In this document: positions 3,290 through 23,550 of the stretch, piece after piece
How the letters are laid out: each line of letters begins with the position of its first letter
Position numbering within the stretch: the first letter of the stretch is position 1
Origin: Jimgerdemannia flammicorona
Taxonomy: Eukaryota
DNA length: 32,914 nt
Reading direction: 5' to 3'
Assembly: GCA_003990765.1 (NCBI GenBank)
Contig: RBNJ01000329.1
Coordinates: 1-32,914 of the forward strand
Notes under the pieces: model-generated
The model's database searches: none
What the model saw: the letters and a program-made list of their open reading frames with translations, nothing else
Told to the model about the DNA's origin: nothing
Made by a program: the position numbers and the translations under genes

Positions 3290-4474
3290 AATGTGGCTTG
3301 TACACGTGACCCTCAACATCATCTCTTGGATATGTTATTCGGGTCTACATCACTGATCTTGACATATAAAAGCATGCTTAGAAAATAATAATAATAATAA
3401 TATAAAAGCATGCTCTACTCAAATCAATTAAACAATCAGTCCTTTTACAGTAATTCTGCAACACAATATATCTAATATATATCTACAATACTATATTACA
3501 GCTGCTAACAATAGAAGATATAAATATTTGTTTAGGATTATAAAGTAAAATATATTTTCTTGAATAACCAAATTCTCAGTCAGTCTATTGCAGAATAATT
3601 TTCTATTAATAAATATGTTATAGGGTGGCTAATTAAAGAATATATGTATCTATTAATATTAAATAAGACAGTAATATCTATATTATTTAAATTATCTAAT
3701 AGGATGTCAGTTGTTGATAATTGGTTAGGTTCTGTATCTCTCAACATATACTGATCATTAATCAAAGACCAATATGTGAGAGAATTATAAGTTTCATTAA
3801 AGATAGGATATAATATAGAAGAATGTGATTATATTAAGATTGAAGATGAAATCTCATCTATATGCAAATAATCTGAAGACTGAATTGCAAATATTAATAG
3901 AGATAAAGGTGGTAATATTATACAGATCAGTAGTATTAGAGACTGAAGTCTCATGCACATGTTGCTGCTCTTACAAGATATCAGTTAGCTTTTTAGTAAT
4001 AATATAATTCTTTTCTTCCTCAACTATAAAAGTGGAATTATAGATAAAGATATAAGAGAAGAGATAATATTTGATCATCATTATTTTTTCTATATAAATG
4101 GATACCTAATGTATAATACTACAAAGTTCAAATATATAATTGCTAACTGATTGCAAAAATATTAACTATTAAAAAACTATTTTATAAAGCAAAAATTCAA
4201 AATATAATAAGCCAATTAGATCTCATTAGCAGATAGTATTTTAAGCTAACCAAATTTCAGAAATCTAGAGATTGCTTTCTATATAATTTATACTTTTTAC
4301 ATCTTAATAATGTGGCTTATATATATGACCCTTGATAATATTTTATAGTTATATCATTTGGATCTATCTTATTGATCTTGACAAATAAAAACACATTCTA
4401 CTTAAATCAATAAATATAAATTTTCATTAACAAATATTTTATTTAATAAATATGATTTTAGTATTTATATAAAT
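3290..4474. repeat. AT-rich dispersed repeat family (host sequence of the TE nest)
   Basis: Block ~3290-3430 recurs at ~4308-4415 and ~12088-12195. Block ~3610-4055 recurs at ~11055-11340 and ~12250-12640. Block ~4110-4280 matches the ~300-bp tandem unit. Confidence 0.8.
3364..3414 (+). mobile_element. 21-bp (TAA)n-tail micro-insertion with 15-bp target-site duplication
   Basis: atataaaagcatgct at 3364-3378 and 3400-3414 flanks tagaaaataataataataata; absent from the paralogous blocks at ~4380 and ~12160. Confidence 0.55.
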
Positions 4475-4907
4475 TGTAACATAGCAGATACTTAATCTTG
4501 GAAGTATGTCGAATTTCTGTATCTTGAAAACTTGATCTTCTTTGAGTCTACAGAGTCCTTAGAATATAGGGGTGGGTGAGTTCAAAGTATATCTGCCTGC
4601 AGGCTTACTAGTTCCTTTGCTTTTTCTTTACTTTGAACTATTTTGATCTGAGGTTTATTCACTCTAAGATACTAGATTATTTATACAAGTTTGTTAGCTA
4701 TAAGGTGGCTGAGTTATGACTAAGTTATGAGTCACTTTTTGCAAGTGTTAATCCTTAACATCTGTTAAATCTTTATCTGTGAATTCTTGATATTTGTAAA
4801 ATAACTACTATTCATAAGGCTATACTATATTGAGAATTGGGTTTAGGTACTATGATCAAATGTCTAATTCTCCTGATTCTTGTTCCTAATTTGGATCAAC
4901 CATCACA
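4475..4907 (-). repeat. 3' LTR of element A
   Basis: tgtaac...catcaca; direct repeat of 10602-11054. Confidence 0.95.
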
Positions 4908-4948
4908 ACTTTCTCCTGAATAAGTGATTTGTCTCTAAAACATCCTAT

Positions 4949-5392
4949 TCACTTGAACTCCCAGGCTTCTATGATTTGTATCTTCTTGTACTATACAATT
5001 TGTGTCATTATATTCTTCCAATTGTACCTCTTGATGTATCTAAAATCTTCTGGAACTACTTCTCAGAAATGGGGTAAAGCAGCCTCATTATCTTTGAATA
5101 GCTTATTGACTCATTTAGCAATTGTAATCTGAGAGTGAGAGAGCTGGCACTCTTTGATCCAATCTTCTTTTCCCATTTCTGGTCATTAATTCAGTAGCTG
5201 TCCTAACTTGAAGTATTCTTGAAACTCTGTCCAATTCTGGTAGGTCTTGAAGTGTGAAATTCATGACAGATATATCTATACTATACTTTGGATTCTGTCA
5301 TAAGATTCCTCTATCATGGGTGGCTTGATAGTATACCATTATCTTTCTATGACTTGTTGTATAGTACTGGTGATCTTGAGAGCTGTGGTCAT
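4949..5392 (-). pseudogene. Third ORF (ORF3) of element A, ~147 codons, unknown function
   Basis: ATG at 5392 just after the pol stop; single frame with only stop-codon lesions: MTTALKIT...QEYFKLGQLL...ITIAK*VNKLFKDNEAALPHF*EVVPEDFRYI...EFK*. Confidence 0.7.
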
Positions 5393-5402
5393 ACTTCATT
5401 GA

Positions 5403-8400
5403 CTAGTTATAATACTTCTTGAGTTGGTTTCAGTGAGTAGTAATAGAGATGATTGTGTCTGAGAGTTTTCATAGCCAAAAGGTGATCTTTTTTATATCTT
5501 GCACCAGGTAAGGTCTCTCCTACTTAGGCTTCAGTTTTTATGACCATAAAGCTTCTACCATATTCTGATACACCAGGACTTTGTCTCCTATCTTGATAAT
5601 CTCTAGGGGCTTGTGAACTTTTTCCACATTATTCCATTGTAGTGTCTGTGCCTTGGTTATATAATCTTCAGCCTTTTTCCTGATTTAGTGTAGTCTCTGT
5701 ATCTCTCTATCTATACATTTCCATACAGTATCTCTATTAGATAATATGGTATCTTGAGAACCTTTTTCTCTGAACAGCATTTCTCAAGAGGTGAAATAGA
5801 TACTTTGTGATTGAATATCCTGGAGAGCAGATAATGCTATTGGCAGATAGTGATCCCAGTTTTCATAATTATCACAGATCTTAGCAATAACATTTTTGAG
5901 GGTCTTGTTGGTTCTTTCTGCCTGTCTATTTTCTTGGAGATGGTATGCTGTGGTCTGAATGTACTAGATCTTGTACTTCTTGTAGGGAACCTTAAAGAAC
6001 TGGTTCATGAATTCTGTTCCTCTATCTGTGGTTACTTGTGTTGGGGTCTTGAACTAGCAGATGATTTCTCTGTGAAAGAAATTAGTAATTGACTGTGCAT
6101 TGGCTTCCTTGAGGGTTCCTGCCTCTATCTATTTCATGAAAAGGTCTACAATAACAATAATATATCAGTTACCAGTCAAAGTCAAAGGTAGAGGACCAAT
6201 CACATCCTTGCAATGTAGGCAAATGGTACTGGTTCTATATGTGCTAATTGTGGGGCTTGGTTTCATTAGTCTTGTTTCTGCTTCTGACATTTGTTATAGG
6301 TCTTGACAAATCATCTGATATCTTCTTCCATTCCTGGCTATCATATTGTTCTTCTTGCTTTATCATATGTGTTTGTTCCTTCCAGATGGCCAAGTTTGTA
6401 TACTGATTTCATTACTTGGTCCTTCTTGTGTTCTGGTATAACTAGTAGTTTTCCTTTCTTCAATATTTCTCTATTGGTTTTGAATTGTTTCTATGTTCTG
6501 TTGATAATCATTTGTATCCATTCTTTCAGATGTTGGGACATCTTTTGCTGTCCCAGATAGGTGATCATTCTGTAGTAAAGCTCTTTATTTATGATTAGTT
6601 TGTTGGTTGGGGGTCCTTTGGGGTATCTATGAGAGGGTATCTGTATTTACAATGATTCTTCCTGGGCAGTGTACAATGGTTACATCATATGCTTGCAACT
6701 TCATGATCTATCTGGCATAGATTCCTTTGGGTTGTCCAGTGGTCAGTAGCTAGGTGAGGGCTGAGTGATCTGTCTAAATGGTGAAGTGTCTTCCAGTGAG
6801 GTAGTAGTGGAACTTTTCTATAGCCCAAATAACTGCTAGACATTCCAACTTATAGGATTCATATTCTTTTTCAGCTCCTTGGGTTCCTCAACTTAGGTAT
6901 ACAATGACATACTCCACTTTGTCTTTCTTTTGAGCTAGGACTACTCCTAGCCCTTAGGTGCTTGTATCTGTCTGCAGGATAAATTCTTGAGTCCAATTGG
7001 GTCTTCTGAGGATGAGTGCCTGGATCCGTCTGACCTTGAGTTCTTTGAATGCTTTCTATTGCCTGCTAGTCCATTGGAACTTGATATTCTTCTTATTGAG
7101 TTCATAGATTGGGTCTGCGATGTTAGAGAATTCTCTAATGAATCAGTAGTAATATGAGGCAAGTCCCATGAAGGCTTGGGCTTCAGTGACTGTGGTGGGC
7201 CTTGGGTATGCTGCTACTGCTTAAATCTTGAGGGGGTCTGTGTGTGTTCCATCTTAATTAATAATATGGCCAAGATAGATAATCTCAATTTCTGTAAATT
7301 TGCACTTCTTGGACTTGATGTAAAGGCCATGCTATCTCAACTTTTTCATCATCTACTGGATATACTGCAGATGTTCTTCAGCTATCTTACTGTAGATGAT
7401 AATATCATCCACATAAACCATTATCCATCTTCCCATGTCATAGTGGAAGATTTTATTCATCATTTGCTAAAAGCTTGCAGGGGCATTACACATTCCAAAT
7501 AACATTCACAGGTAGATATAGGTTCCATCTGGAGTGATGAAGGCTGATTTCTCACTTGCTATTTCTGTGAGTCCAATGTAGTGGAATCCTGAGTATAGAT
7601 CCAAGGTGCTGTAGTACTGTACTTCATCTCCCAGAGTTATAAGGATGTCATTGATAAGGGGCAGTAGTTGGCAATTCTTCTTAGTGACTACATTAAGCTT
7701 TCTATAATCAATACAGAGTCTTGGTGCAAATTCTCCAGACTTGCTTTCTTCTTTGGAGCTAGTACAACTAGTGAAGACCAGGGGCTGCTGGCTTCCTTGA
7801 TGATACTGGCTTCTTCTATCTGCTTGATTTCTTCTCTGAGCTATTCTTAGTAGGCTAGCAGGATATTCTTGAATTTATAGAGTATTTTCTTGAGTTCCAT
7901 CTTGAGTGAGAATTTATCTCCAATAGTATAGCTGTGCTTGTTCATAGTTTCCTCCTTCTTGTGCTGTAGCTCAGTGATCTTTATACTGGCAAATACTCCT
8001 CTTCCTGTAGATCTGAATCCTTTCCTTCCTCTTCCTGTTTCCTCCAACTTCTTGACTTCTATAATTCTTGGCTGAAGGACTGGGAAGATCAACATCTGTG
8101 CTAGTTAATCCTTCTTCTTAATTGGAAATGGAATTGTAGGGTTGTGGTTCCTAGCAATAAGTAGTATTTCTCCAATATAATCAGAATCAATGACTTCTCC
8201 TTCAATTGTGATTTTGCTCTTAGCAAGACTGCTTCTTGTCTTGAGGAATCCGACATGGCCTTTTGGAATGGTCATCTCCAGACCAGTTGTGAGTAGGGTG
8301 ATTGTCTGGGATTCTAGTATAGTTTCTTCCACTGTGGCAATATCCATTCCAGCTGCATTTTCTGACTTGTATTCTGACAAGACTGCATCAGGGTGAATCT

Positions 8401-10495
8401 TCCAAATCTTGATCTTGATTTCTTCTTCATCATCACTATCTTTGAGGAGAGCTGGTGGTTTGTCATCCTCTTCCTCTGCTTCTTCCATTCTCTTTTCTTC
8501 TCTTGCCTGTTTCTTGAGGGCTTTCTCTCTTCTTTGGTAGTGGATCTTCTTGATTTTGCCAGTGCACTGGTAACACTCATTGATATGCTCCATACAGTAC
8601 ATTCAGATCCCATGGGGACAGACTTCTTGTGGTGCATATTCTTCTATAATATTCTTGCACCAGTCTTCTTTGCTCATTCATCTAATCTTCTTCTTCTTTT
8701 TCTGGGTTGTCATTATATAGGCCTCCTCTTGCTCACTCTCTTCTTCCTCTATCTCAGGCAGGACTCCTTTATTGACATTGATCAGAATTCGTATCTTCTG
8801 TCCACAGTAGATGATCTGGATCTTCTGGGCATTTAGATCAATTATTGCCTTGGCTTTGTGAAGTCATTGATTGCCAATAAGGATATCATAGTTGGTTGCA
8901 TTAATCATGATTATATTTACTAGAATGGTTGCTCTTCCAAACTTGATGGAAATATCTCAGATCTTTCCCAGAGATGTGGCTCTTGTGCCATCTGCTGTGA
9001 CAAATACCAATTTAATTGCTTCTTCAACTTCCCAATCTAGGCAGTCTGCTGCTTTCTTGCTGAGAAGGCACCCTCCTGCTCCTGTATCAATAATAGCCTC
9101 AAACACTCTATATATCTTTGATTTGACAGGTTACATAGGCAGAGGTCTTGCAGTTGTCTTCACTTTCTTCTCCTGAGTCTTCTTGAACATTTTTGGCCTT
9201 GGTTATCTTCTAACCTTGCTCCTTAGTTATCTTAGCAAGTCCATATCTCATTTGCTGTCTGAATGTGGGTATTTCTGCCAACTGGCCAAAGGTGGCATTG
9301 ATCTTTTGTTGACTGAGATCCTTGAAGATATCATACTTGAAGGTCTTGGTTTTGTGAAGCTTTTTCTCCTTTTCTCCTTCACTAGCTGTAGTGGTTCCTC
9401 AAATAATATCTTGAACAGTCTGTTCTAACTCCATATCTTGATCTATTTCTTCACCTTGACTTTCTGTAGTAGTCTCCATTTGCTTTTCCACAGGGTTCTT
9501 CTTGGGTCTCCCTGGTGGTCTCTTATAGGGTTCTTTGTAGATATTCTTTTTGGTGGTCTGTACAGAATAGGCCTCCCATTCTTCTTCATCTGATTCTCTG
9601 ATTTCTTTAAAGGTGATGATGTTGACCTGTTTCTTATTTTGAGTTGCATTACTTGGCTGGGCCTTGCACTTGGTTTTGCTCATACATTTATATGAGTAGT
9701 GGCCTTCTTCTCTACAGGTATAGCAGATATCTCTCTTCTTGTCTGAGGTGGTGGTGAATTTCTGAATTGGTTGGCAGTTTCTTCCTTTAATTTCTTTTAC
9801 TATATCTCCTAGGTGAGCTGTTATTTTGGTGAACCTCTTGGCAAGTTCCTCCATGGGGTCACTATTTCTCTATTGCTTGGTAGCTCTTGGTTGAGGTGTG
9901 TTTTAATTGATTACTATAGTAGGGATTATGCTAGTTGCCTTGGGTGCTTCAATTCTGACTCTAGTGACTCTCTCTATTGTATGGTCTTATAGATGTCTGG
10001 CAATCTAGTATTGCTAAGCATAGGTGATCTTCTGTGCTAGATCAAGAACTATTAGTAATAAATGAATGGCCAGGGCTATCTCTTAGTGGATTCCTTTTAT
10101 GAAGATTACTTCAGCTACTTGATCTCTAATAGGGGTAGTATAATCTATAAAGATTATCTGATATTAGATTCTAGTGTAGAATGTGTTGAGATCCTCACTC
10201 ATTCCTTGGCATGTTGTGTTGAGCTGATCTTTTAGTGCCTGCTTGATCTCATCTGTGTAGTATGTGGCTCAGAGCCAGGTCTTCTGTGCTACTAGATAGC
10301 ATCATCATCATTTTCTATATGGGTTGCCACTGTGAATGCTGCTCTTGCTGATTCTTACAGACTAAATAGTATGAGAGTTACTTGCTGTCTTGCTGTCAGG
10401 CCCCTTATAGTAGTATATTGCTCAAAATCATCAATGAAGATAATAATTGATTTATCTGAAGTATAGCCATAGAATACTGGTGGTCTCATATTCAT
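5403..10495 (-). pseudogene. gag-pol of element A (many premature stops)
   Basis: Gag start MNMRPPVFYG; zinc knuckle CYTCREEGHYSYKC (~9683-9724); protease IIDTGAG (~9075-9095); RT YVDD (~7405-7416); RNase H; integrase DVIGPLP and TDRGTEF; C-terminal IKIGDKVLV domain. Confidence 0.93.
8003..8415 (-). pseudogene. dut: dUTPase domain of element A
   Basis: Trimeric dUTPase motifs AAGMDI, KTRSSLA, GEVIDSDYIGEI, LAQM, RGRKGFRSTG; one internal stop. Confidence 0.92.
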
Positions 10496-10601
10496 CTTGT
10501 CTGAATATCTTGCTTATATAGTTATTCAAGTGATGGTGGTTGTTTATTGTTTAGCTTGAAAGTGAGAGATGTCTTGAATCACTAGCCAATGAACACCAAG
10601 T

Positions 10602-11054
10602 TGTAATATAGCAGATGCTTAACCTTAGAAGTATGTCAGATTTCTATATCTTGAAAACTTGATCTTCTTTGACTCTGTAGAGTCCTCAGGATACAGGGGT
10701 GGGTGAGTTTGAAGTGTATCTATCTGCAGGCTTATTAGTTTCTTTGCTTTTTCTTTGCTTTGAACTATTTTGATCTGAGGTTTATTCACTCTAAGATACT
10801 GGGTTATTTATACAAGTTTGCTAGCTAAAAGGTGACTAAGTTATGACTAAGTTATGAGTCACTTTTCATAAGTATTAATCCTTGACATCTGTTAAATTTT
10901 TAACATCTATGAATTCTTGATATTTGTGAATTCTTGACATTTGTGAAATGACTGCTATTCATAAGACTATACTATATTGAGAATTGGGTTCAGGTACTAT
11001 GATCAAATGTCTAATTCCTCTGATTCTTGTTCCTAATTTGAATCAACTATCACA
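10602..11054 (-). repeat. 5' LTR of element A
   Basis: tgtaat...tatcaca; about 20 bp longer than the 3' LTR, from extra copies of a short internal repeat. Confidence 0.95.
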
Positions 11055-12640
11055 AAATATATCATAAGACAGCTAATTAAAGAATATATTTATCAATATT
11101 AAATAAGGTATTAATATCTATATTATTTAAATTATATGATAGAATATTTAGTAATTGGATAGATTCTATATCTTTTAAAATATACTAATTATCAGTTAAA
11201 GACCAATATGTAAGTGAATTATGTATGAGTTTTATCAAAGAAAGGATATGATATAGGAGAATGTGATGACATTAAGATTAAAGATGAAATCTCATCTATA
11301 TGTAAGTAATCTGAAGACTGAATTATCAATATTGATAGAGATGATTTGTAATTGCTAATACATTACAAAGAGATTAACTACTAAAAAGTCATTTTATTAG
11401 ACAAATATTCAAAATATAATAAGCTGATCAGATCTCATTGATAGATGGTATTTTGAGCTAATCAAATTTCAGCAAAGTGTCTTATATGTGAGAGTTTACA
11501 GAGTGTATAGAGTAAATGTATGGTGTGTGGATTGTAAAATAAATAAAAGTATAGTAAAAAGAAGTAATTAAAAATGTTAAGCAAAAACCAGAATACAAAA
11601 AGACTGGATGTGGGTTTGGGCTTTTCAAGGCCCACTATTCACATACATATGTGAAGGAGCCAACACCTATTTATTCCAAAAGAGATAGGTGAGAGAGATA
11701 TGTAAAAATTGATTGAAGATTTAAAAATATAATAGAAATGTCTGCTTAATGAAAAGTATGCTTGAAGGTAAGTAATGAGTGCTAAAGGAAGGAAGTGCAT
11801 TATGGCTGCTGGCATACTTAAAACTAGACTAAATTAGACTAAAACTGATATACTTAAAACTGGACTAAATTAGACTGAAAGAGAGACTAAGACTATAAGT
11901 GAAACTGAGCTAGGGTGAATTGCATAACTGTACTGCTGAAACAAATATTGCTATAGTGAATTGCAAGACTACATTACTTAAATGAATATCACATGGTTTG
12001 TGCCACTTTGCTGCAGTTTAAACTTCATTCATAACTCTATAAATCTAGAGATTACTTTCTATACAATATGTAGAAATTTAATCTTGATAATATGGCTTAT
12101 ATATATGACCCTTGACTATATTTTATAGTTATATTATTTGGATCTACCTTATGGATCTTGATAAATAAAAGCACATTCTACTCAAATCAATAAATATAAA
12201 ATATTTAATTTAATAAATATAATTTTAGTATTTATATAAATATATTCACCAATATCAAATAAAGTATTAATATCTATAATATTCAAATTATCTAGTAGAA
12301 TGTCTAATAATTGGATAGATTCTATATCTTTTAAAATATACTGATTATCAGTTAAAGAAGATCAATATGTGAGTGAATTATGGGTTTCATCAAAGAAAGA
12401 ATATGATATAGGAAAATGTGATGACATTAAGACTAAAGATGAAATCTCATCTATATGTACAAAATCAGAAGACTGAATTGTCAATATTGATAGCGATGAA
12501 GGTTGAGATACTATGTATATGAGGATCAGAATTAGAGACTGGTATTTTAAGCTCTAATGAGATATCAGTCAGCTCTTTGACAATGGGGTAGCCCCTCTCT
12601 TCCTCAATCATATAAAGAGAGATTGCAGATAAAGATATAC
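11055..12640. repeat. AT-rich dispersed repeat family, further copies
   Basis: Homologous to blocks within 3290-4474; interrupted by an insertion at ~11470-12040. Confidence 0.75.
11470..12040. mobile_element. ~570-bp non-coding insertion, possible MITE
   Basis: Splits host sequence tttcag|aaatctagag (contiguous at ~4255-4270). 10-bp inverted repeat cagcaaagtg (11470-11479) / cactttgctg (12004-12013). No clear TSD. Confidence 0.45.
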
Positions 12641-13412: not shown

Positions 13413-13717
13413 TATGATATATGTATGATATAAAATAGAAATAAGAATTAGAAGAATAAATATTTGATCATGATATCTGAATCTAATTTCAAATATAGTA
13501 TAGTATTTCAACAATATTAAAATTTTTCAACACTTTCAAAATAACTCATAACTTAGCCACCCATCTCATAGTATATAAATCTGTATAAATGACCCAATAT
13601 TTTAGAGTAAATAAAGCTCAGTACAGTCAGTTCAGTTCAAAGGTCTTCTTTATATACTCTTTCTTTCTTTATATAAAATCCATCTAACTCACCAAGTTCC
13701 ACATCCACTATATTACA
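13413..13717 (+). repeat. Degenerate 5' LTR related to family A (element C), followed by a PBS-like site and leader
   Basis: Aligns with the reverse complement of LTR A (actcataacttagccac, tgtataaat, agagtaaataaagctcag, ctatattaca). Next comes acttagtatctattggctggt, matching A's acttggtgttcattggctagt. Start approximate. Confidence 0.75.
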
Positions 13718-13997
13718 ACTTAGTATCTATTGGCTGGTAATTTAAGATGAATTTTCACTTTTAAGCTGAAAAATGAATAACTGCTATACAGACCATCATG
13801 TTGTATATAGTATTTGTCTGTACTATCTGCTGTTAATTAGTTGTTCTGATTGTCAGCCTCATTTCTATAAACCATTAGTATTGAATAATAGACATTCTAG
13901 AAGAATATATTATTGAGTTAATAGCTGGGTCACTCTTTAGTTTGAGAGATAATATTATAAAAATTAATTGCCAAAAACACTGAACAAACCATCATGC

Positions 13998-14365
13998 TGA
14001 ATAGATCACTGTATGGACCACTACTACTCAATTTTGAAGAAGATGAAGAGACCACTATATAGACCACTATGATCTGATTTTGAAGATGATGAATGGACTG
14101 CTATATGGACTACTGCCACTTGATTTTGAAGAAGATGAACAGACTGCTGTATGGACCACTGCTATCTGATTTTGAAGATGACAAATAGACTGCTGTACAG
14201 ACCACTGCTACTTAATTTTAAAGAAAATAAACATACCACTGTATGGATTACTGCTATCTGATTTTGAAGATGATGAATAGACTGCTGTATAGACCACTGA
14301 TACCTGATTTTGAAGAAGATGAATGAACCACTATATAGACCACTATTACCTGAATTTTGAAGATA
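13998..14365. repeat. Minisatellite, 8 x 46 bp
   Basis: Unit like tgaatagactgctgtatggaccactgctatctgattttgaagatga; flanked by a ~160-bp direct repeat (~13823-13980, ~14379-14535). Confidence 0.92.
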
Positions 14366-16058
14366 TTGTTTATTTATGCTATCTACTGTTAATTGGTTGT
14401 TCTGATTACTAGCCTCATTTCTGTAAATCATCAGTATTGAACAATAGATACTCTGGAAGAATATATTATTGAGTTAATAGCTAGATTGCTTTTTAGTTCA
14501 AGGGATAACATTATAAAAATTAATCACTGAAAATGCCAAATAATGACCATACAAAGAACTACTATAGAGAAAAGAAGATACAAACTATTGTCTGACTTTT
14601 GATGATATACAAACTACCATTACTTATTAAAGATACCATACAAAGCTATCATCTAACTCTTGATAATATATAAATAGACTGCTATGAAGAATAAAAGAAA
14701 TGAACCAATGCCTAAGTTAATTATTTGAAGAACACTACTCATTATACAACTGTTAAGCTTCAGATATCTAGAGATTGAATTTTATATAATTAAATATAAA
14801 TATTGTAGAGAAATTAAAAACTATTACTAGATTTAATATTATTAATATATATATATAAGTGAAATTAATATAATTATTTCTTTAGGTATCATATATATTT
14901 AGTAAAATATAGCTATTTAATATATGTACAATATTATAAAGCTCAAATATATTATTACTGACAGATTATAGAGAGATTAATTATTGAAAAGATATTTTAT
15001 AAAGCAAAATTTCAAAATATAATAAGCTGATCATAGATAGTATTTTACACTAACTAAATTTCAGAAATCTAAAAAGAAAATAAAAATTAATCACTAGATT
15101 TAATATAATTAATATATATGGAAGCAAAATTAATGTGCTCTGATCAATATTATTCCTTCAGATATTATATATTTAATAAAATATAGCTTTGTAATTATGT
15201 AGAGAAATATCTAATATATTTTACTACAGAGCTTAAAATATGTAATTACTGATAGATTATAGAGGAATTAACTATTAAAATAATATTTTATAAAGTAAAA
15301 TTTCAAAATATCATGAGCTGATCAGATCTTATTAGTAGATAGTATTTTACACTAATTAAATTTCAGTAATATATTTTAGAGAAAATTAAACCTTGTCACT
15401 AGAATAATTAATATATATATAAGTGAAATTAATATACTCTGAGCAATATTATTCCTTTAGATATAATATATATTTAGCAAAATATAACTTTGTAAATATG
15501 TAGAGAAAAATTTAATATATAATACTACAGAGCTTAAAATATATAATTGCTAATTGATTGTAGAGGAATTAACTATTAAAATAATATTTTATAAAGTAAA
15601 ATTTCAAGATATAATGAGCTGATAATATCTCATTGATAGAAAGTATTTCACACTAACCAAATTTCAGAAATCTCAAAATTATATTCTAGTAATATATTTT
15701 AGAGAAATTAAACCCTGTTACTAGAATAATTAATATGTATGAAAGTGAAATTAATATACTCTGACCAATATTATTCCTTCAGATATAATATATATTTAGC
15801 AAAATATAACTCTGTAAATATGTAGAGAAATATTTAATATATAATACTATAGAGCTTAAAATATATAATTACTAATAGATTATAAAGGAATTAATTATTG
15901 AAATAATATTTTATAAAGTAAAATTTCAAGATATAATGGACTGATCAGATCTCATTAGTAGATAGTATTTCACACTAACCAAATTTCAGAAATCTCGAGA
16001 TTATATTCTAGTAATATATTTTAAAGAAATTAAACCCTATTACTAAAATAATTAATAT

Positions 16059-17599
16059 TATCACATAGTGGTCACTGAGTCCTTCAAATATGTTAGATTC
16101 TCTTCAAGGTGTATCTCTTAGACTAACTCAAGTTTGTTATAAGCAAGTTCTTATTGGAGTACCTTCCCAAAGTCTTATAGTCCTCAAACTTCTTATCTTT
16201 AAACTGTCTAGTTATCTCTTTAGATTACTCATAAGAAATTGTATATAAGTGAACTTGACTGACATTATTTTGAAGAAAATAAGAGGAATATTTATATAAA
16301 ATATAATTCAATGGTTGCTAAGATATAAAGCTAAATATAAATTCCAATAATCAAATAAAATACTGGAATACAGAAAATTGCCAAGTTCTAGTATTGACAC
16401 AGATGGTTGCAGCACAGGTTCAGAATACTGGTATAATTTTGGTAATACAGGAAAAGGGTGCTGGAATAATTCTTAGTTATATATATAAGATCAGAATGCC
16501 AGTAGAGGAATAGATGTTATACAGGAAAAGAATGCCAGCATAATTCAGTATAACTAAGAGACTTAGAGTAGAATATTCAAGACCACGGATGCTTCATCCT
16601 CATCATCGCTGAAGGAGATGAGATCTGTGAATGTTTCATCACATGTTTTGTATATGTCGCACAGGATGACGTCATCGCTGATGATGTCATCACATTTGGC
16701 AGTGGGGCTCTTCAATCTATAAGATTCTCTTTCACAAAATAAGGGACAAATGTGGGGTCTTGGGGAGGTCTAACCTGGATACTTGGGCCTTGGAATATTG
16801 AGATCAATCCTTGCAGGAATTGATCTGGATTGTCCTGGAGAATGGGATACCAGAAGTCTTCTACTTCATCACTATTGAAGGTGATAGTGGACTGAGCTTC
16901 TGTAGCCACCCTGGCTACTAGTGCATTGATATGGCAGGCTGACAGATCTCTGAAGTCTGAGACTCTAATATACTCCAAGTTGAGGATTGACCATAGTATA
17001 TGCCTGAAGATCTGATGAATCTTCTTAGCTATCCTTATTTTATATATCTATGGAAGTGGTATCTTATAGCTCTTGAGGGCTGGCTTGAGGGAATTTCTGG
17101 CAGAGGAGGTTTTCTATTTCATATTCTTATTATATCTGGAGGCATTTAGTAGCAATGGTGATTTTTGTTTCTATCTCACAGTAGTAGAGGATATAATAAT
17201 AAGAGTCATTAGTATCCAGGTTGAGACTAGGAGTCCTTCTTATATGGATCCTCATGGCTCTTCTGATGTCTTGGAACATCCTTTCTTCAACTGAGGGGTC
17301 TTGGTAGTTCCTTGATCTTGAGGTTTGGTGAGCAGTAGGTATTTTATTTGTAGTAAATCTTTGAGCTATTTTGGTATTGGTGGATCTTATTGAGTTGCTG
17401 CTACTGCAGTTCCTTGATCCTTCTTTTATATTCCTCAAGATGCCTGTACTGTGGTCACAATGACTCATAGTTAGTCATTATTGCTCATCTTGTATTTTGG
17501 GTGAGTTATGCCATATGATCTTCTTATACTCCGATCTGGTAGCTTACAAGGAATTACTGTCTCTTGTGCTGATATCATCATTCTGAGGTCACTGTTACA
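16059..17599 (-). mobile_element. Element D: 1541-bp solo-LTR-like insertion containing an ORF
   Basis: On the minus strand starts TGTAAC and ends TGTGA(T)A (mutated CA). 4-bp TSD ATAT (16055-16058 / 17600-17603). The host tandem unit is restored on removal. Confidence 0.75.
16712..17468 (-). pseudogene. ORF3-like gene inside element D (stops, one frameshift near 17045)
   Basis: ...ERMFQDIRRAMRIH...QI**EYEIENLL...RIAKKIHQIFRHILWSILNLEYIRVSDFRDLS...ENLID*. Start codon uncertain (17468, or a mutated ATG at ~17342). Confidence 0.6.
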
Positions 17600-17862
17600 A
17601 TATGTATAAAAGTGAAATTAATATACTCTGACCAATCTTATTTTTAGATGTTATATATATTTAGTAAAATATAGCTCTATAATCATATAAAGAAATATTT
17701 AATATATAATACTATAGAGCTCAAAATATATAATTGTTAATAGATTGCAGAGGAATTAACTATTGAAATAATATTTTATAATAACCAAATTTTAGAAATC
17801 TAAAAATTAATATTGTAGAGAAATTAAAACCTATCACTAGATATAATATAATTAATATATAT

Positions 17863-19083
17863 TGTGATGAGCAACAGAATTGTACTACTGAAATCATAAA
17901 TTAGCCACATACTATATCTAGTGCACTAAGCAACAAAGACTACTTTACTGCACCAATCTGTATATTTAGCCAGAGATACCAGAAACAGTATGTTTACCTA
18001 TACCCTCCAGGTATACTATACCCTCAAGATACACTGTACCCTCAATATACACTGTACCCTTAAGTAATACTTGCCCTAGATAGTAATCTATAGTTAGCAA
18101 CATATAACTAGTAGCAACTACAACTGTATAAAATACCCCAGAGATAAGAGTGAATAAACCTCAGTCCAAATTGAATCTAAAGCAAAAGTCAAGTCTGCCT
18201 ACTATACTTCAAGAGGAACTCTACAGCTATTGCTAGGGGATTGTGAGCAAAGTATTCCTTTCTACTCTGGTCCACTTTCCAATATAAAGAAGAGTTTGTT
18301 ACCTTTTTGGTTTACTTACCAGATAAGCCTGAAGAATCTGAGTTTGCTATCAAGTTTAAGTAAAGGTCTTTGCTGCCATTTCTGAGTTATCTGTATTCCC
18401 AGAAAGCCCCCTATAAGAAACCTTGCCACAAGCCAGTCTTTTGATACAACTTTGCAGTGATTTATTCATGCAAATGAAGCCAGTCTTTTGATACAACTTT
18501 GCAGTGATTCATTCATACAAATGAAGTTAGTCTTTAATGTAACTTGCCAAGAATCTGTACTATCTGAGTTATTAGTTTTGTTTCCAGTAAGTCCAATTTA
18601 GAGAATCTGCTGCCAGTATCATTCCCAGTAAGCTGATTCAAAAGAATCTGCACTATCTGCTATTTCTAGAAGAACTGCTGAGTTATTATTCCCAGAAGTC
18701 CACCAATTTAGGAGAATCCATGCCAAATTGAGTCATCTGTCAAATTACCAGAACATCACACATAAGGAATCCACTATTCCACATGGAGATTGACACACTA
18801 TACAAGATTATCATGCAGAAATCATATAAGGAGAACTGCCAAATTGCCAGACCATCATATATAAGGAATACTCATACCATATATATAAATTACTGCTATA
18901 CTCAGAGAACTGTCCCAATTAGGAAATTGATATACAAATCACTTGCAGATATCCAGCTTTGACTATTATACCACTAAATACCAAGAATATTTTATTGCTT
19001 TTAACAAAGTAACTGGGGGCTCAAGCTAAACTACATCAATCCCCAACCTTATAATTTGCCTCCATTGAGCCAGGCATATTATA
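17863..19083 (+). repeat. 5' LTR of element B (3' end inferred; alternative end ~19006)
   Basis: Matches 26982-27820 up to ~18749. End placed before tgggggcttaactgagaa (19086-19103). Contains 18-bp and 47-bp internal tandem repeats. Confidence 0.75.
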
Positions 19084-21377
19084 TTTGGGGGCTTAACTGA
19101 GAAGATTTTAAATCAATATGACTTTTCAGCTCACAAGAACCCATAGTCAAACTAGATATATTTGATATAACACCAATCTCTATTACTACAGAAGAACCAG
19201 TCATCACTAGTATTTGGACAGGAAGAGAAGTAATAACTTCAAGACTTGCTAACTACACAGCATAAGAAGAATTTCAACCAGAACCAGAAGCCAGTACAGC
19301 CCAAAATCCCCAATCAGATCAATCAGACAATACAGGCAGTCCTGTTGGAAACCTTGCAGAACTTGCCCAAGAACTAGAAGATATCATTACATAAGTCTGA
19401 AATTATACAGCCAGATATCCTATAGCAGTTCCACCAATTTCACCCATAGAACCTTTACCACCAGCTCTTGTAGAATTGGAAGTAGCTCCTACAAGAATAT
19501 CTAGGCTCATTCCACTTTGTCTAAGGTCCAGAACACCATTCTCAAGATATCCAAGCACCCCCATCTCCAGTAATAGTTCAGAAAGTGAATCAGAGTCAGA
19601 ATCTGAATCAGAATCCAGACCAGAACCAGAATTAGAAGAAAGTGACAATGAAATGTCCACCTTATTGCCAATCTTTGCAGAATATCTGGAGGAAGATCCT
19701 AGAGAATTCCTTGATGGAATTGAAGGAATTGCAGTCCTGAGAAATCTCTCAGATGAAAGGAAAATCACCATCTATAAGGCCCAGCTCAGAGAACTAGTCA
19801 GAGGAATTTTCCACCAAACAGCAAATGATCCAAATTAGAACTGGCAGCAGAAATATAAGCAGCAGTATCTTTTTAGCTAGAATACATAGCCATGGTCCAC
19901 TGGCTTATCAAAAAATACATAGGAAATGAAACCCATCACAAGGCTCAAGAATCCATCATAGAGATGAAGATGAATCTTAGAGAATCACCCAGAGCCTTCT
20001 TTACAAGAATCCAGAAGAGAATGCATACTGCTGGATTTAATGCCACCAATCAAGACATCATAGGACCAATGACCTTCATGAATGAGATTCCCCCAAATAT
20101 TGCTCAGCATGTCTGTACTCTAGGCATCAGAAGGTCTGAAGAGTAAGTAGATACAGCCCAAGGATTCTTTGATGTCAGACAAGAAACTACCTGGAGTGAT
20201 CATGACAAGAAAGAAGATAAAGAAGACATCCTGGTCAAAGCCCTATAAGGACTCCTTCAAGGACAAGAGAGATCTGAAGAAAGAAGACCAGCTAAAGAAG
20301 GAAAGAAGGACAGGAATAAAATCCAAGACCTCAGTTCCAAGTTGGACCAATTGGTTGAATAGATCAAAAAACTCACCACATATGAAAATTAGAGTTATCA
20401 AGACAACTGAGGATATCCCCCACAAAGGAATCAAGGTTATTCATCTAGAGATAACAGGAGCTATCAGCAAGAAAAAAGAAGATACTCTGTTCAAGACCAA
20501 GCCCAAGTCCAATGCTTCTACTGTGGACAATTCAGATACTATACCACTAAATGTGACAATAAAAGAAGTAATCAAAGGGACTTAGAACCACCAAATCAAA
20601 GGAATGACACTCAGTACAAGAAGGCTGAAGCTCATCCTGTCGAAGATTTTAAAGAAGCAAGCAATAGTGAAGACTACAGTGACTTAGACTTGTACTCTAC
20701 TAAGGTTACCATCTGAAAGACAGTCTACCCAGCAGAGAAAAGGAAGAGACCTGTTAGAAGGCCATCCAGGAATATCAGCAGGAGAATTATCCAAGAAGAA
20801 GATGAAGAACATGAAGAGGAGCAAGTAGAAACACCTCTCCAGACTCCCTTACCTTTTGTCTCTGAGACAAATGAGTTGCCACCAGAGGATGAAGAAATGG
20901 AGCAAGAAGAATGGGAACCTACTGCCCCAAAGCCCAAGAAGAAGTACACCCCAAAGACTATACCCAGAGATATCTACAATGAAGCCTGGCAGAAGATCCA
21001 AGAAGCCAAGATGGAAGTCCCTCTCCTGCAGTTCCTGCAACTGATATCAGCTAGAGTTTGAAACAAATTACTGAGAACCACTAGGTCCAGCACTGGCTGA
21101 GTTCCAATCCCACAACAAGAGCCAGCTTCTATTCCTATTCAAGCTACAGAAAGATATGTCAGCACCTACTTACATGGAGATATTGGAGAACAAAAGGCAA
21201 AAATCCTTATAGATACAGAAGCAGCTATCTGTATTATTGCCAAATAGTTCCTGAATACCCTCCAATGGCCATTGATGGACCATCCAACCTCAGCATTATA
21301 GTAGCAGATGGAGCCTGAACTCAGCCCCTTGGAGAAGTATGAAACATCACTATCTCCCTGGGACACATTCAGTTCTC

Positions 21378-21687
21378 TTTTTTTTTTTTTTTTTTATAGT
21401 CTCTTGGGCTCCGTCTTTATTACCAGTCTATGATTAAGTATACAATATCACCACCCACTAACCGATCCCCATCGGGGGGCCCCACCCCACCTCTTCACAT
21501 ATAAAGACCACCCTCTCACCAACAACTCCAACCCTCCCACCACTCTGACCATAGATTTTCACCACCAAGTGGCGCCTCCGCCCCCCCTGCAGCCTCCAAC
21601 CAAGCCACCAGCCTGTCAAGGTATCCTCCATAAGGAACTGCCACCTTGCTAACTGACTCCCCAAGCTCTGTCGCTTCTCCTCCTCAA
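21378..21687 (-). mobile_element. 5'-truncated non-LTR (LINE-type) retro-insertion within the protease of B
   Basis: 16-17 bp TSD gacacattcagttctc(t) at 21362 and 21688; 18-nt poly(A) tail; AATAAA at 21416-21421 (minus); open 3' end of an ORF stopping at 21458; CpGs retained. Confidence 0.92.
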
Positions 21688-23139
21688 GACACATTCAGTT
21701 CTCTATCCCAAAGGCTGTTATTACTGAAGCTGTCATCTATGATATAATTCTTAGCACCAACTGGATGAAGAAAATGAATGCAGTTGTCAATATCAGATAA
21801 CAAGTACTCAAGTTTGACTACTGAGATAAGAAGTACAGAGTCAAGGTGACCAGCTATGAGCAATTAAAGAAGAAGAAGGTCACTATCTAGAAAGAATATG
21901 CTAGTAGCAAAGAGTCTACCACAGAGGAGAAAGAAGAATCTGAAGATGAAAATGATCCCAGACTCAATCCCAGGATCAACCTAGTGGATTACAGACCAGA
22001 AGACAATGTATGGGCCAAGAACACTGTCCCCATTACCATTAAAGCCATTACAGGAGAAATCAAAGGATGCCCCACCTGCCTCAAGAGACACAAGTGCTCC
22101 AAGCACTCCTCCAAGATCATTGGAACAAGGAATTTGTCTGGCACAGCCTGCCCAGAGTGCAGAAAGAAGAAGAAATACAGACATATTCCAGAAATACCTG
22201 CAGCTGAAGCTGCAGAAGTATAAGCAATTTGGGGTCAAGAAGTATCTGAGGAAGAAGAAGCTCCTGACCAAGAAGTTTCTGAACAAGAAGCACCCAAAGA
22301 AGAAGAAATCCCCAAACTCATTCCCTGGGATGACTCTCACTGGATACTACCTGAAGATGATGACTCTTGGAATATTGAAGAAGGATCCAGTATAATCTCC
22401 ATTATTCCAAAGAAAGAAATATACCAAGAAAAAGCTTTTTAGCTAGGAAGATATCCACACCAAATGATCTTCCACTCTCCCTGAGACTACTGCTATCAGT
22501 GCCATCTATTAGACCAATAAGAGAGACAGAGACCCCAGAGACCAGAACTCTCAAATACAGTTGCACAGTCAACTATCTTCCAAAAAGTTACCACTAAGTT
22601 GCAAAGTTGATTTAAAGGACAAGGTCTCTTTACCTGAATAGAAGTATACCTCTTATCCACTCTTTCTCCAACTTATGACCAAGATGAATACCAATTCCTA
22701 AGACAATAAGAAATCAACAACTGAGAACATCATTTCCAAGCAATGGAATATTGTAACCATAGAAGACACCCAGACTACTGAGACTGCAGACATCAGAAGA
22801 TTCACCTTAGTCATGATGTTGCAATTCACACCTTAAATAGAGGAGACAACAGAGGCCAGATCCGAAAAAGCCAGACCAAGAAGCCAGGAAGAAGGACTCT
22901 CAAGATCTATGATTTAGGAGAAGACATTCTAGCTCTTATTAGACATACAACCCACTAAGGAAGGGTAGAGAATGCCACCATCTTCATAGAAGCCATAGAC
23001 CCTATAGGAAGAAGAGGAATTAACTATCTCCAAGACCCCTCTACTGGAGCCAGATGGCCACACCTCAACCTCAGAGCCTAGAGGCTCTCTGCTAGTAGAG
23101 CCTCAGCCCAAGGACAGCTCAAACTCAGCAAGAATGTTG

Positions 23140-23550
23140 CCCAGTATGCCCTACTACATCCCAAGGCCAAACCCCTGACCAAAGCCCACCCAGAAGATGT
23201 AGGATATGATCTTCACAGTCTGGAGGATGAATCCATTAAGCCTGGAAAAATATTCATGATCAGAACCAGACTAGCCATACAATCACCCCAAGGAACTTAC
23301 ATTCAACTGACCTCAAGGTCTGGACTTGCCAGACAAGGAATAACCATAGAAGGAGGAACTATTGACCCAGGATATATATGTAGGTGAAATCAAGGTCATC
23401 CTATACAACAGTAGTACTGAATGGCACCAAATCATTAGAGGACAAAAGATTGCCCAAGCAGTCTTCATGAAGGTCAAGACCCCACAGTTACAAGAAGTTT
23501 CCAAACTAACTGAAGGAACAAGGTAAGCCAAAGGATTCAGAAGCTCAGAT
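23140..23550 (+). pseudogene. dut: dUTPase domain of element B
   Basis: DVGYDL, TSRSGLA, GGTIDPGY(frameshift)GEIKV, KIAQ, R*AKGFRSSD. Confidence 0.92.

What the first reader, a model, noticed from the sequence alone, without database searches (positions are those of the whole stretch)
16059..17599. 1.5-kb solo-LTR-like element that carries the accessory gene inside the LTR
Seen: TG..(C>T)A ends, a 4-bp TSD like element A, no internal LTR pair and no gag/pol. On the minus strand the ORF3-like gene comes first, then a TATA-like motif (~16295) and a pyrimidine-rich tract. A few CpGs survive at ~16585-16680. Known analogy: MMTV sag and HIV nef lie in U3. Inference: in a third family ORF3 has moved into U3, so each solo LTR would deposit a copy of the gene.
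Basis: partly seen in the sequence, partly recalled or inferred. Interest (0 to 1): 0.8.

Follow-up and report, generated by a model that had tools for sequence, protein, structure and literature searches.

The report
Solo LTR carrying an accessory gene
This 1.5-kb insert is most likely a lone terminal repeat of a fungal retrotransposon that encloses a whole, now broken, accessory gene, which related elements appear to keep outside the repeat.

Summary
Window 16059-17599 is a discrete 1,541-bp insertion in a ~300-bp AT-rich satellite, with a 4-bp duplication (ATAT). On the minus strand it reads TG...TA. It has no internal repeat pair and no gag/pol.

Contigs from soil-metagenome runs show the unit is highly repeated. 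Other copies end in CA, not TA. In three runs that end runs into a PBS-like sequence matching the one beside the LTR of gypsy-type element B in this window. So it is very probably a solo LTR.

On the minus strand it holds a decayed ~260-codon gene (17342-16563). The lesions are a lost start, four stops and two frameshifts. Intact relatives (up to 271-342 aa, identity down to ~30%) occur only in metagenomes. Differences between copies favour third codon positions.

In a metagenomic relative (L001) the gene ends 8 nt before a purine tract and an LTR-like start. The regions after integrase in elements A and B match the family profile weakly but above shuffles.

Not shown: LTR pairs flanking gag-pol, U3 rather than R placement, expression, or function. 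No domain or fold match was found. The host is probably an arbuscular mycorrhizal fungus.

The parts
16059..17599 (-). Solo LTR (1,541 bp) of a Ty3/gypsy-type family. On the minus strand it reads 5' TGTAACAG... to ...CTATGTGATA 3'.
   Evidence: It interrupts a satellite monomer exactly. Its termini resemble LTRs A, B and E. It is highly repeated in runs X1-X4, with cover confined to about 16061-17608. A PBS-like sequence follows the 3' end in other copies.
16055..16058 (.). Target-site duplication, left copy (ATAT)
   Evidence: Alignment of the flanks to uninterrupted satellite monomers.
17600..17603 (.). Target-site duplication, right copy (ATAT). It could be AATAT from 17599.
17423..17430 (-). 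TATAAAAG box, about 80 nt upstream of the gene's ancestral start. This is the candidate promoter of the gene itself.
   Evidence: The same motif (TATAAAAGAACG) sits 80 nt upstream of the ATG in L001. The upstream alignment has z 2.2, and 17 of 500 shuffles reach it.
16563..17342 (-). Pseudogene of the accessory (ORF3-family) protein, about 260 codons. Lesions: start ATA, two adjacent stops at 17132-17127, a stop near 17064, a frameshift near 17045, TGA at 16714-16712 and a frameshift near 16700.
   Evidence: tblastn of P0009 gives 77%, 65% and 40% identity in three segments across two frames. Other copies read G where this copy lost its start (17340) and where it has the TGA stop (16712) (table 3).
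16368..16562 (-). Variable spacer with short direct repeats (CTTTTCCTGTATWAC, TGGCATTCT)
   Evidence: Sequence. Summed depth is very low at >=80% likeness (bins 16368-16722). An indel-type loose end lies at 16350 in X1-X3.
16292..16298 (-). Second TATA-like motif (TATATAA), followed by a pyrimidine-rich tract. This is the candidate promoter of the genomic RNA.
   Evidence: It lies inside the conserved, high-depth block 16084-16367. The role is inferred.
16150..16155 (-). AATAAG, a possible poly(A) signal 143 nt after the second TATA and 96 nt before the LTR end
   Evidence: The role is inferred.
14772..16058 (.). AT-rich satellite (about 300-322 bp monomers) that received the insertion. It continues at 17600-17859.
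10574..10599 (-). PBS-like sequence of element B (TTGGTGTTCATTGGCTAGTGATTCAA). It differs at 3 of 26 positions from the sequence that follows the target LTR in other copies.
   Evidence: It is the only match in the window, and 0 of 100 shuffles give one.
5033..5257 (-). Decayed post-integrase ORF3 of element B. It is a weak match to the N-terminal half of the family profile, upstream of B's PPT (AGGAGAAAGT, about 4913-4922).
   Evidence: The score is 8.6 bits, and 0 of 1000 shuffles reach it.
26200..26978 (+). Decayed post-integrase ORF3 of element A. It is a weak match to the family profile, with an acidic tail that ends at the 3' LTR start (26979).
   Evidence: The score is 8.2 bits, and 0 of 1000 shuffles reach it. 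The order of the two matched motifs is inverted relative to the profile.

Best explanation
The segment is a solo LTR in minus-strand orientation. It belongs to a Ty3/gypsy-type retrotransposon family of a fungus, probably an arbuscular mycorrhizal one. Integrase inserted the element into an AT-rich satellite with a 4-bp duplication. Recombination between its two LTRs later reduced it to one LTR.

This LTR encloses a complete accessory-gene cassette, in this order:
- about 170 nt of 5' end;
- TATAAAAG;
- an ORF of about 260-271 codons;
- a variable repeat spacer;
- a conserved block of about 300 nt with a second TATA-like motif, an AATAAG and the 3' att end.

Sister lineages (elements A and B here, and metagenome contig L001) carry the homologous gene between integrase and the polypurine tract. 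The likeliest origin is therefore an upstream shift of the plus-strand priming site. Everything between the priming site and R becomes U3 by definition, so the shift would copy the gene into both LTRs and into every solo LTR.

The protein has a basic N-terminus, a helical core and a strongly acidic C-terminal tail. I take it to be a trans-acting regulator of the element, for example a transcriptional activator or an RNA-handling factor. This copy is dead.

Shown: a discrete insertion with a TSD; LTR-type ends; a PBS-like sequence next to the 3' end in other copies; a conserved coding gene inside the unit; the lesions in this copy.

Inferred: the solo-LTR origin, the U3 placement, the PPT shift, and the promoter and poly(A) roles.

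Guess: the protein's function.
For: Insertion and ends:
- The satellite is interrupted exactly, with an ATAT duplication. Element B also has a 4-bp TSD, ATTT.
- The termini TGTAACAG...CCACTATGTGA(C/T)A resemble those of B (TGTGATGG...CTGCTATRTTACA), E (...CCACTATATTACA) and A.

Other copies:
- 1179, 304, 53 and 21 contig pieces from X1-X4 lie on the unit. Cover is confined to about 16061-17608.
- In X1, X2 and X3 (two studies) the loose end before 16061 reads ..TTGAATCACCAGCCAATGGGCACCAAGTTG. On the minus strand this is LTR-CA + ACT + TGGTGCCCATTGGCTGGTGATTCAA. It differs at 3 of 26 positions from B's PBS region at 10574-10599.
- At the other end, a depth-13.7 contig stops at 17592. Depth-2 contigs and two X4 loose ends diverge at 17603-17608 into different sequences.

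A real gene:
- 13 relatives have E<=0.001, and 5 were found among 1.84 billion representatives. Identity goes down to about 29%, with intact ORFs of 271-342 aa.
- L001 has an intact 291-codon ORF.
- Of the 24 listed between-copy differences that fall in the ORF, 15 are at codon position 3 (binomial p 0.003; p 0.012 without the two lesions).

Internal position in relatives:
- In L001 the stop is followed by GGAGGGAGGA and then TGTAATAAGTATTATAGCAGA. B's LTR end, inverted, reads TGTAATATAGCAGATG.
- The post-integrase regions of A and B match the family HMM, and 6 control regions do not.

No repeat of the unit's first 100 nt is found downstream of the ORF.
Against: - No full-length copy was seen, so no pair of these units flanks gag-pol and no PPT is seen upstream of a 3' copy.
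- The junction evidence is asymmetric. A dominant PBS junction appears at the 3' end, but no dominant junction was listed at the 5' end. Only 24 loose-end rows were shown and 157 were not.
- Summed depths differ between the 3' block (about 300-2400 in X1) and the ORF block (about 130-1800), and are very low at 16368-16722. This would also fit two separate repeats, although depth is not a copy number.
- L001 can be read another way: its purine tract and LTR-like start could be relics inside an extended LTR.
- No nucleotide similarity links the post-ORF part to L001's post-ORF part or to B's LTR (z -0.3 and 0.3).
- The homology to the ORF3 of A and B is weak (whole-window E 0.15 and 0.44), and A's motif order is inverted.
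- TATA and poly(A) assignments in an AT-rich fungal sequence are weak evidence.
- Nothing supports any specific protein function.
Confidence: 0.55

Rival explanations
1. It is a solo LTR, but the gene lies in R/U5 and not in U3. TATAAAAG at 17430 would be the LTR's own promoter. The ORF would then be the first reading frame of the genomic RNA leader, repeated at both RNA ends if R is long.
For: TATAAAAG at 17430-17423 is the best TATA box in the unit. It is conserved in sequence and in distance to the ATG in L001. L001 also has a 33-nt motif upstream of this TATA that recurs in its LTR-like part (170-202 versus 1481-1513; 82%; E 3.6e-4). The two promoters may therefore be related.
Against: In L001 the same TATA-ORF unit sits upstream of a purine tract and an LTR-like start, so there it is not the LTR promoter. 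An R of more than 1 kb would put a poly(A) site far from the cap in the 5' LTR, which is awkward for making genomic RNA (established retroviral biology, recalled). A second TATA-like motif, an AATAAG and a 96-nt tail form a conventional U3-end/R/U5 layout in the conserved 3' block.
Confidence: 0.18
2. It is an internally deleted element and not an LTR. It would be a short stub of the 5' LTR joined by an illegitimate deletion to the region upstream of ORF3, then ORF3 and the true 3' LTR of about 300-500 bp.
For: ORF3 normally lies just upstream of the 3' LTR in A, B and L001. The depth profile shows two blocks separated by a low-depth stretch. No full-length copy was seen.
Against: The first 100 nt of the unit are not repeated after the ORF, so a stub would have to be shorter than about 12 nt. 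No purine tract follows the stop codon. The ORF-side end at about 17599 is also an end in other copies, because contigs stop or diverge there. A one-off deletion product would not show that.
Confidence: 0.12
3. It is another kind of mobile or chimeric DNA, such as a small DNA transposon or a captured host gene, that only resembles an LTR.
For: The terminal inverted similarity is short and imperfect. A 4-bp AT-rich duplication is not unique to LTR elements. The protein has no known domain.
Against: A PBS-like sequence shared with element B follows the 3' end in three runs. The ends match those of neighbouring LTRs. No transposase is present. All 13 relatives come from metagenomes and none carries a functional name, so no named host gene was found.
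Confidence: 0.05

Closest known systems
MMTV sag in the U3 of the LTR (betaretrovirus; recalled, not checked in a paper here)
   Same: A complete accessory ORF lies inside the LTR, in sense orientation. It is therefore duplicated at both ends of the provirus and kept by solo LTRs.
   Different: Here the host is a fungus and the element is Ty3/gypsy-like. The protein is unrelated. The gene has its own conserved TATA box. U3 placement is inferred, not mapped.
HIV/SIV nef and foamy-virus bel2/bet overlapping U3, with the foamy-virus internal promoter for tas/bet (recalled)
   Same: A 3' accessory gene next to or overlapping the PPT/U3 boundary. Foamy viruses also drive it from a separate internal promoter. 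A basic N-terminus with an acidic C-terminus is typical of viral transactivators.
   Different: Those genes only overlap U3, whereas here the whole gene and its promoter are inside the LTR. No sequence or fold similarity was found.
LTR retrotransposons with extra ORFs between pol and the 3' LTR. Examples are bdelloid rotifer elements (PMC5408684, listing and start of abstract seen) and the Cer1 CERV protein (PMC10309623, start of abstract seen).
   Same: Lineage-specific accessory ORFs of unknown or regulatory function in Metaviridae-like elements. Elements A, B and L001 fit this layout.
   Different: In those the ORF is internal. In the target family it is inside the LTR. No homology was tested or found.
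Fungal Ty3/gypsy elements carrying dUTPase (PMC2864245, passages read)
   Same: The neighbouring elements here encode zf-CCHC, dUTPase, RT and RNase H. That paper reports dUTPase at varying positions in basidiomycete and ascomycete elements, and 'add. ORF' features.
   Different: Those are Dikarya elements. No LTR-borne gene is described in the passages I read. The parent element of the target LTR was not seen.

Membership tests
LTR of an LTR retrotransposon (solo LTR) | Short target-site duplication flanking the unit | tested here: met
   ATAT on both sides, with the satellite monomer otherwise continuous. Element B has a 4-bp TSD.
LTR of an LTR retrotransposon (solo LTR) | 5' TG ... CA 3' termini with short inverted similarity | tested here: met
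   TG at 17599-17598. The window has TA at 16060-16059, and other copies have CA. The ends resemble those of LTRs A, B and E.
LTR of an LTR retrotransposon (solo LTR) | A primer-binding site directly downstream of the 3' end in full-length copies | tested here: met
   The loose end in X1, X2 and X3 gives CA + ACT + TGGTGCCCATTGG.. It differs at 3 of 26 positions from B's PBS region. The primer tRNA was not identified.
LTR of an LTR retrotransposon (solo LTR) | A polypurine tract directly upstream of the 5' end in 3' LTR copies | tested here: inconclusive
   The listed loose ends beyond 17600 (X4 only) are not purine tracts. 157 loose-end rows were not shown.
LTR of an LTR retrotransposon (solo LTR) | Two copies in direct orientation flanking gag-pol | not testable with these tools
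   No genome is held. There is no second copy in the window. The metagenome, viral and genome scans gave no longer contig.
Accessory gene inside U3 (sag-type arrangement) | The ORF lies between the LTR 5' end and the transcription start (U3/R border) | tested here: inconclusive
   The ORF is inside the unit and upstream of a second TATA-like motif and an AATAAG. No transcript data exist, because no RNA holder was listed.
The ORF3 protein family of these elements (unnamed, metagenome-only) | Significant sequence similarity across the protein | tested here: met
   tblastn of P0009 against the window gives E 1e-79. The HMM gives 1.7e-55, 2.3e-28 and 4.1e-06 for the three segments.
The ORF3 protein family of these elements (unnamed, metagenome-only) | The same family as the post-integrase ORFs of elements A and B in the window | tested here: inconclusive
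   B scores 8.6 bits and A 8.2 bits. In each case 0 of 1000 shuffles reach the score, and 6 controls score -0.2 or lower. The whole-window E-values are only 0.15 and 0.44.
Ty3/gypsy (Metaviridae) parent element | A pol gene with PR-RT-RH-IN order, belonging to the same element as this LTR | not testable with these tools
   Only the PBS-like junction and the LTR ends link it to element B, which has zf-CCHC, dUTPase and RT.

The most novel reading that the evidence does not exclude
Each LTR of this family, solo LTRs included, is a self-contained gene: its own TATA promoter, an ORF of about 270 codons and the LTR's poly(A) signal. Gene dosage would then scale with LTR copy number and outlive the parent elements. 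The protein, with a basic head and an acidic tail, would be a trans-acting regulator serving the whole family, such as an activator of the LTR promoter or a counter to host silencing. That would make it a fungal Metaviridae counterpart of the regulatory genes of complex retroviruses.
Probability: 0.2. Interest if true: 0.8.

Novelty: new variant of a known kind. Interest (0 to 1): 0.58.

Why it matters
Genes inside LTRs are textbook for a few retroviruses (sag; nef partly). My literature searches found no LTR retrotransposon described with one. The passages I searched in two surveys of transposable elements in arbuscular mycorrhizal fungi did not mention one either.

If the reading is confirmed, four things follow.

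- A simple shift of the plus-strand priming site can move an accessory gene into the repeat.
- The gene's copy number is doubled, and every solo LTR leaves a promoter-gene-terminator unit behind.
- A conserved, unannotated protein family is defined in a fungal retroelement lineage.
- Direct tests become possible: transcript mapping, and the ratio of solo to paired copies.

The copy in this window is itself a dead relic.

Tried and rejected
No genome is held for this window, so copies could not be counted or paired.

Expression: no RNA holder was listed for the element, so nothing can be said about expression.

Searches for longer contigs:
- Metagenome contigs: 155 pattern matches, 1 confirmed, which is the 1,535-bp L001.
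- Viral contigs: 40 matches, none confirmed. The PBS pattern gave 0.
- Genome contigs: 9 matches, none confirmed. The PBS pattern gave 0.

Function of the protein:
- Pfam gave nothing, apart from sub-threshold ATG5_HBR matches at E 0.03-0.13, which I treat as chance.
- The PDB sequence profile search gave 0 hits.
- The ESM Atlas gave no lead. Its own model has pLDDT 0.35.
- The AlphaFold2 model has mean pLDDT 53.8.
- Foldseek against the PDB gave nothing at E<=0.001.
- The search for longer, fused forms found none, which is weak evidence.

Relic of an older LTR start after the ORF: the alignments of the window's post-ORF part to L001's post-ORF part and to B's LTR do not exceed shuffles.

L001 as a tandem repeat: rejected. 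Only a 33-nt motif recurs, not the whole overlap.

E's 1.7-kb LTR as a second gene-bearing LTR: no HMM signal on either strand.

There are no tRNA genes in the window, so the primer tRNA was not identified.

Earlier scan findings: nothing is on record.

Depth is a summed contig word depth. I did not use it as a copy number.

Full report
**Setting.** The window is a nest of decayed LTR retrotransposons and satellites in a CpG-poor, AT-rich eukaryotic genome (CpG o/e 0.28).
- Pfam on 44 long frames finds zf-CCHC, dUTPase (three times), RVT_1 and RT_RNaseH_2. These are Ty3/gypsy-type elements with a dUTPase.
- The right end (32323-32914) is the first 593 positions of a eukaryotic 18S rRNA.
- By my recollection the sequence is of fungal type. 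It contains an exact site for primer AML1. In the search listing, 38 papers hold that primer name together with that sequence, and the five listed are surveys of arbuscular mycorrhizal fungi.
- The element is found in soil-metagenome runs.
- A glomeromycotan host is therefore likely but not proven.

**The observation.**
- A ~300/322-bp satellite runs from 14772 to 16058 and resumes at 17599/17600.
- Aligned to uninterrupted monomers, the left flank ends ..AATTAATAT (16058) and the right flank restarts (A)ATATGTAT.
- So 1,541 bp were inserted with a 4-bp duplication ATAT (5 bp if 17599 is flank).
- The minus strand reads TGTAACAGTGACC...CCACTATGTGATA.
- The element has no similarity to the rest of the window or to itself and no Pfam domain.
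- Five of its six CpGs lie at 16586-16676. TATATAA and a pyrimidine tract lie at 16298-16272.

**Is it an LTR?** Its ends resemble the LTR ends of three other elements in the window. These are B (TGTGATGG...CTGCTATRTTACA, TSD ATTT, PPT AGGAGAAAGT), E (...CCACTATATTACA) and A.

I laid contigs of four soil-metagenome runs (two studies) at 80% likeness. This placed 1179, 304, 53 and 21 pieces on the element, and cover was confined to about 16061-17608.
- In X1, X2 and X3 the contigs run past 16061 into the same sequence. On the minus strand this reads LTR-CA, ACT, TGGTGCCCATTGGCTGGTGATTCAA.
- Other copies therefore end in CA. What follows differs at only 3 of 26 positions from the sequence next to B's 5' LTR (10574-10599). 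That site is the only such match in the window, and 0 of 100 shuffles give one.
- E has a more decayed version of the same sequence. This is the place and form of a primer-binding site.
- At the other end, a depth-13.7 contig stops at 17592. Low-depth contigs and two X4 loose ends diverge at 17603-17608 into different sequences, as expected at a repeat boundary.
- An X1 contig joins 16055 to 17606. I read it as an uninterrupted satellite monomer and not as proof of polymorphism.
- Window-versus-copy differences lean towards A and T in the window. In X1, A>G plus T>C total 112, against 64 for G>A plus C>T. This fits deamination decay of this copy.

**The gene.** The minus-strand frames 17474-17130, 17047-16712 and 16769-16563 are pieces of one gene.
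- Relatives exist only in ENA/JGI metagenome proteins. There are 3, 5 of 1.84 billion representatives, and 13 with the profile. None carries a functional name or a Pfam domain.
- P0009 (271 aa) aligns over its whole length, at 65%, 77% and 40% identity in three segments.
- Lesions in the window copy: ATA at the start (17342-17340), two adjacent stops (17132-17127), a stop near 17064, a frameshift near 17045, TGA at 16714-16712 and a second frameshift.
- At the lost start (17340) and at the TGA stop (16712), most other copies read G on the coding strand.
- The family reaches down to about 29% identity with intact ORFs (P0007 342 aa, P0011 325 aa).
- Of the 24 listed between-copy differences that fall in the ORF, 15 are at codon position 3, 6 at position 1 and 3 at position 2 (p 0.003). 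Only 40 of 313 differences were listed.
- This is a selected protein-coding gene, not a chance frame.
- TATAAAAG lies about 80 nt upstream of the start, at 17430. It is conserved in sequence and spacing in L001.

**Where relatives keep the gene.**
- L001 is a 1,535-bp metagenome contig, and its ORF is about 47% identical to P0009. It has an intact ORF (376-1251).
- The ORF's stop is followed by GGAGGGAGGA and then TGTAATAAGTATTATAGCAGA. That is a purine tract followed by a start like the inverted LTR end of B.
- A family HMM run on six-frame translations of the window hits only the target significantly.
- The best other hit lies in B's post-integrase region, and A's post-integrase region ties for the next.
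- Tested alone, these regions score 8.6 and 8.2 bits. In each case 0 of 1000 shuffles reach the score. Six control regions score -0.2 or lower: B antisense, B and A upstream regions, and E's LTR on both strands.
- B's alignment is gapless, with the family's motif spacing. A's two motifs are in inverted order.

**Mechanism.**
- Integrase needs both LTR ends, so the TSD-bounded unit began as a full element.
- A single LTR left by LTR-LTR recombination is the simplest product. It implies that both LTRs contained the gene.
- Three related lineages keep the gene just upstream of the PPT. An upstream shift of plus-strand priming would therefore place the gene and its promoter in U3.
- The conserved 3' block (16084-16367) holds a TATA-like motif, an AATAAG 143 nt later and a 96-nt tail. 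This fits the end of U3, then R and U5, but it was not mapped.

**Rivals.**
- The gene lies in R behind the first TATA.
- The unit is a deletion derivative (5' stub + ORF3 + 3' LTR). The first 100 nt do not recur after the ORF, no purine tract follows the stop, and 17599 is an end in other copies too.
- The unit is a non-LTR mobile element, which the PBS-like junction argues against.

**The protein.**
- It has a basic head: net +7 in the first 50 residues of P0009.
- AlphaFold2 predicts a helical core, with mean pLDDT of only 53.8.
- It has an acidic tail: net -17 in the last 70 residues. The tail carries acidic-aromatic motifs and a conserved (V/I/T)LNF near the end.
- No domain, solved relative or fold match was found.
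- A regulatory role is a guess from this charge layout and from analogy with retroviral accessory genes.

**Literature.**
- Searches for ORFs in the LTRs of retrotransposons found none. One search listed extra-ORF elements in rotifers and Cer1. One search listed TE surveys of arbuscular mycorrhizal fungi.
- Passages of two such surveys, searched for 'solo', 'dUTPase', 'accessory', 'additional ORF' and 'Gypsy', mention only Gypsy in general terms.
- dUTPase in fungal gypsy elements is known (PMC2864245, passages read).
- Supplements were not read.

**Verdict.** The solo-LTR-with-gene reading is the best supported, at about 0.55 for the U3 form and about 0.7-0.75 for a gene-bearing solo LTR of either form. 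Decisive genome-level evidence is missing.

Noticed in passing
window 32323-32914 and 127-1362: The window ends in the 5' 593 positions of an 18S rRNA gene with an exact AML1 primer site (32635-32658). Its upstream spacer and about the first 112 nt of 18S recur at 127-1362 (86% identity to 31153-32435). An rDNA 5' fragment is therefore duplicated 31 kb away, with nested retroelements in between.
   Followed up: partly
window 14772-16058, 17600-17859, 4092-4291, 11344-11475: An AT-rich satellite (about 19-27% GC) with monomers of about 300-322 bp. It is a repeated target of LTR insertions (the solo LTR, and the 5' side of element A). An uninterrupted monomer also occurs in run X1.
   Followed up: partly
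window 13954-14403: A tandem array of about 9 copies of a 46-bp unit. It lies just downstream of the PBS-like sequence of element E (LTR end at 13717).
   Followed up: no
window 8108-8602 (-), 23082-23384 (+), 27709-28191 (+): Three dUTPase domains in Ty3/gypsy-type elements. In element B the order on the minus strand is zf-CCHC, then dUTPase, then RT.
   Followed up: partly
window 17860-27824: Element A has LTRs of about 890 bp (83% identical) but no matching duplication: ATAT on the left, AGAG on the right. Its 3' LTR abuts an inverted copy of element B's dUTPase-RT region (27822-30096 versus 8477-6298). This suggests recombination or nesting. The sequence after its 5' LTR does not begin with TGG.
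   Followed up: no
window 4261-4474 / 11047-11342 versus 12041-12639: Element B (LTRs 4475-4912 and 10602-11055, TSD ATTT) appears to be inserted in a copy of the long E-type LTR. Its two flanks are contiguous in the other copy at 12041-12639.
   Followed up: no
window 10574-10599, 13718-13747; run contigs at 16061: The PBS-like sequence shared by three families (TGGTG[CT][CT]CATTGGCT[GA]G...) starts 3 nt after the LTR. I did not match it to a tRNA. The homology continues into the leader.
   Followed up: no
L001 170-202 and 1481-1513: In the metagenome relative, a 33-nt motif upstream of the accessory gene's TATA box recurs (82%) about 220 nt into the LTR-like part. It may be a shared regulatory element of the two promoters.
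   Followed up: partly
window 26200-26978 (+): In element A's post-integrase region, the two motifs that match the ORF3 family (DQxLQxL..FQ and YxIGxxL..DIQN) are in the opposite order to the family. This could be a duplication, a permutation or chance.
   Followed up: no
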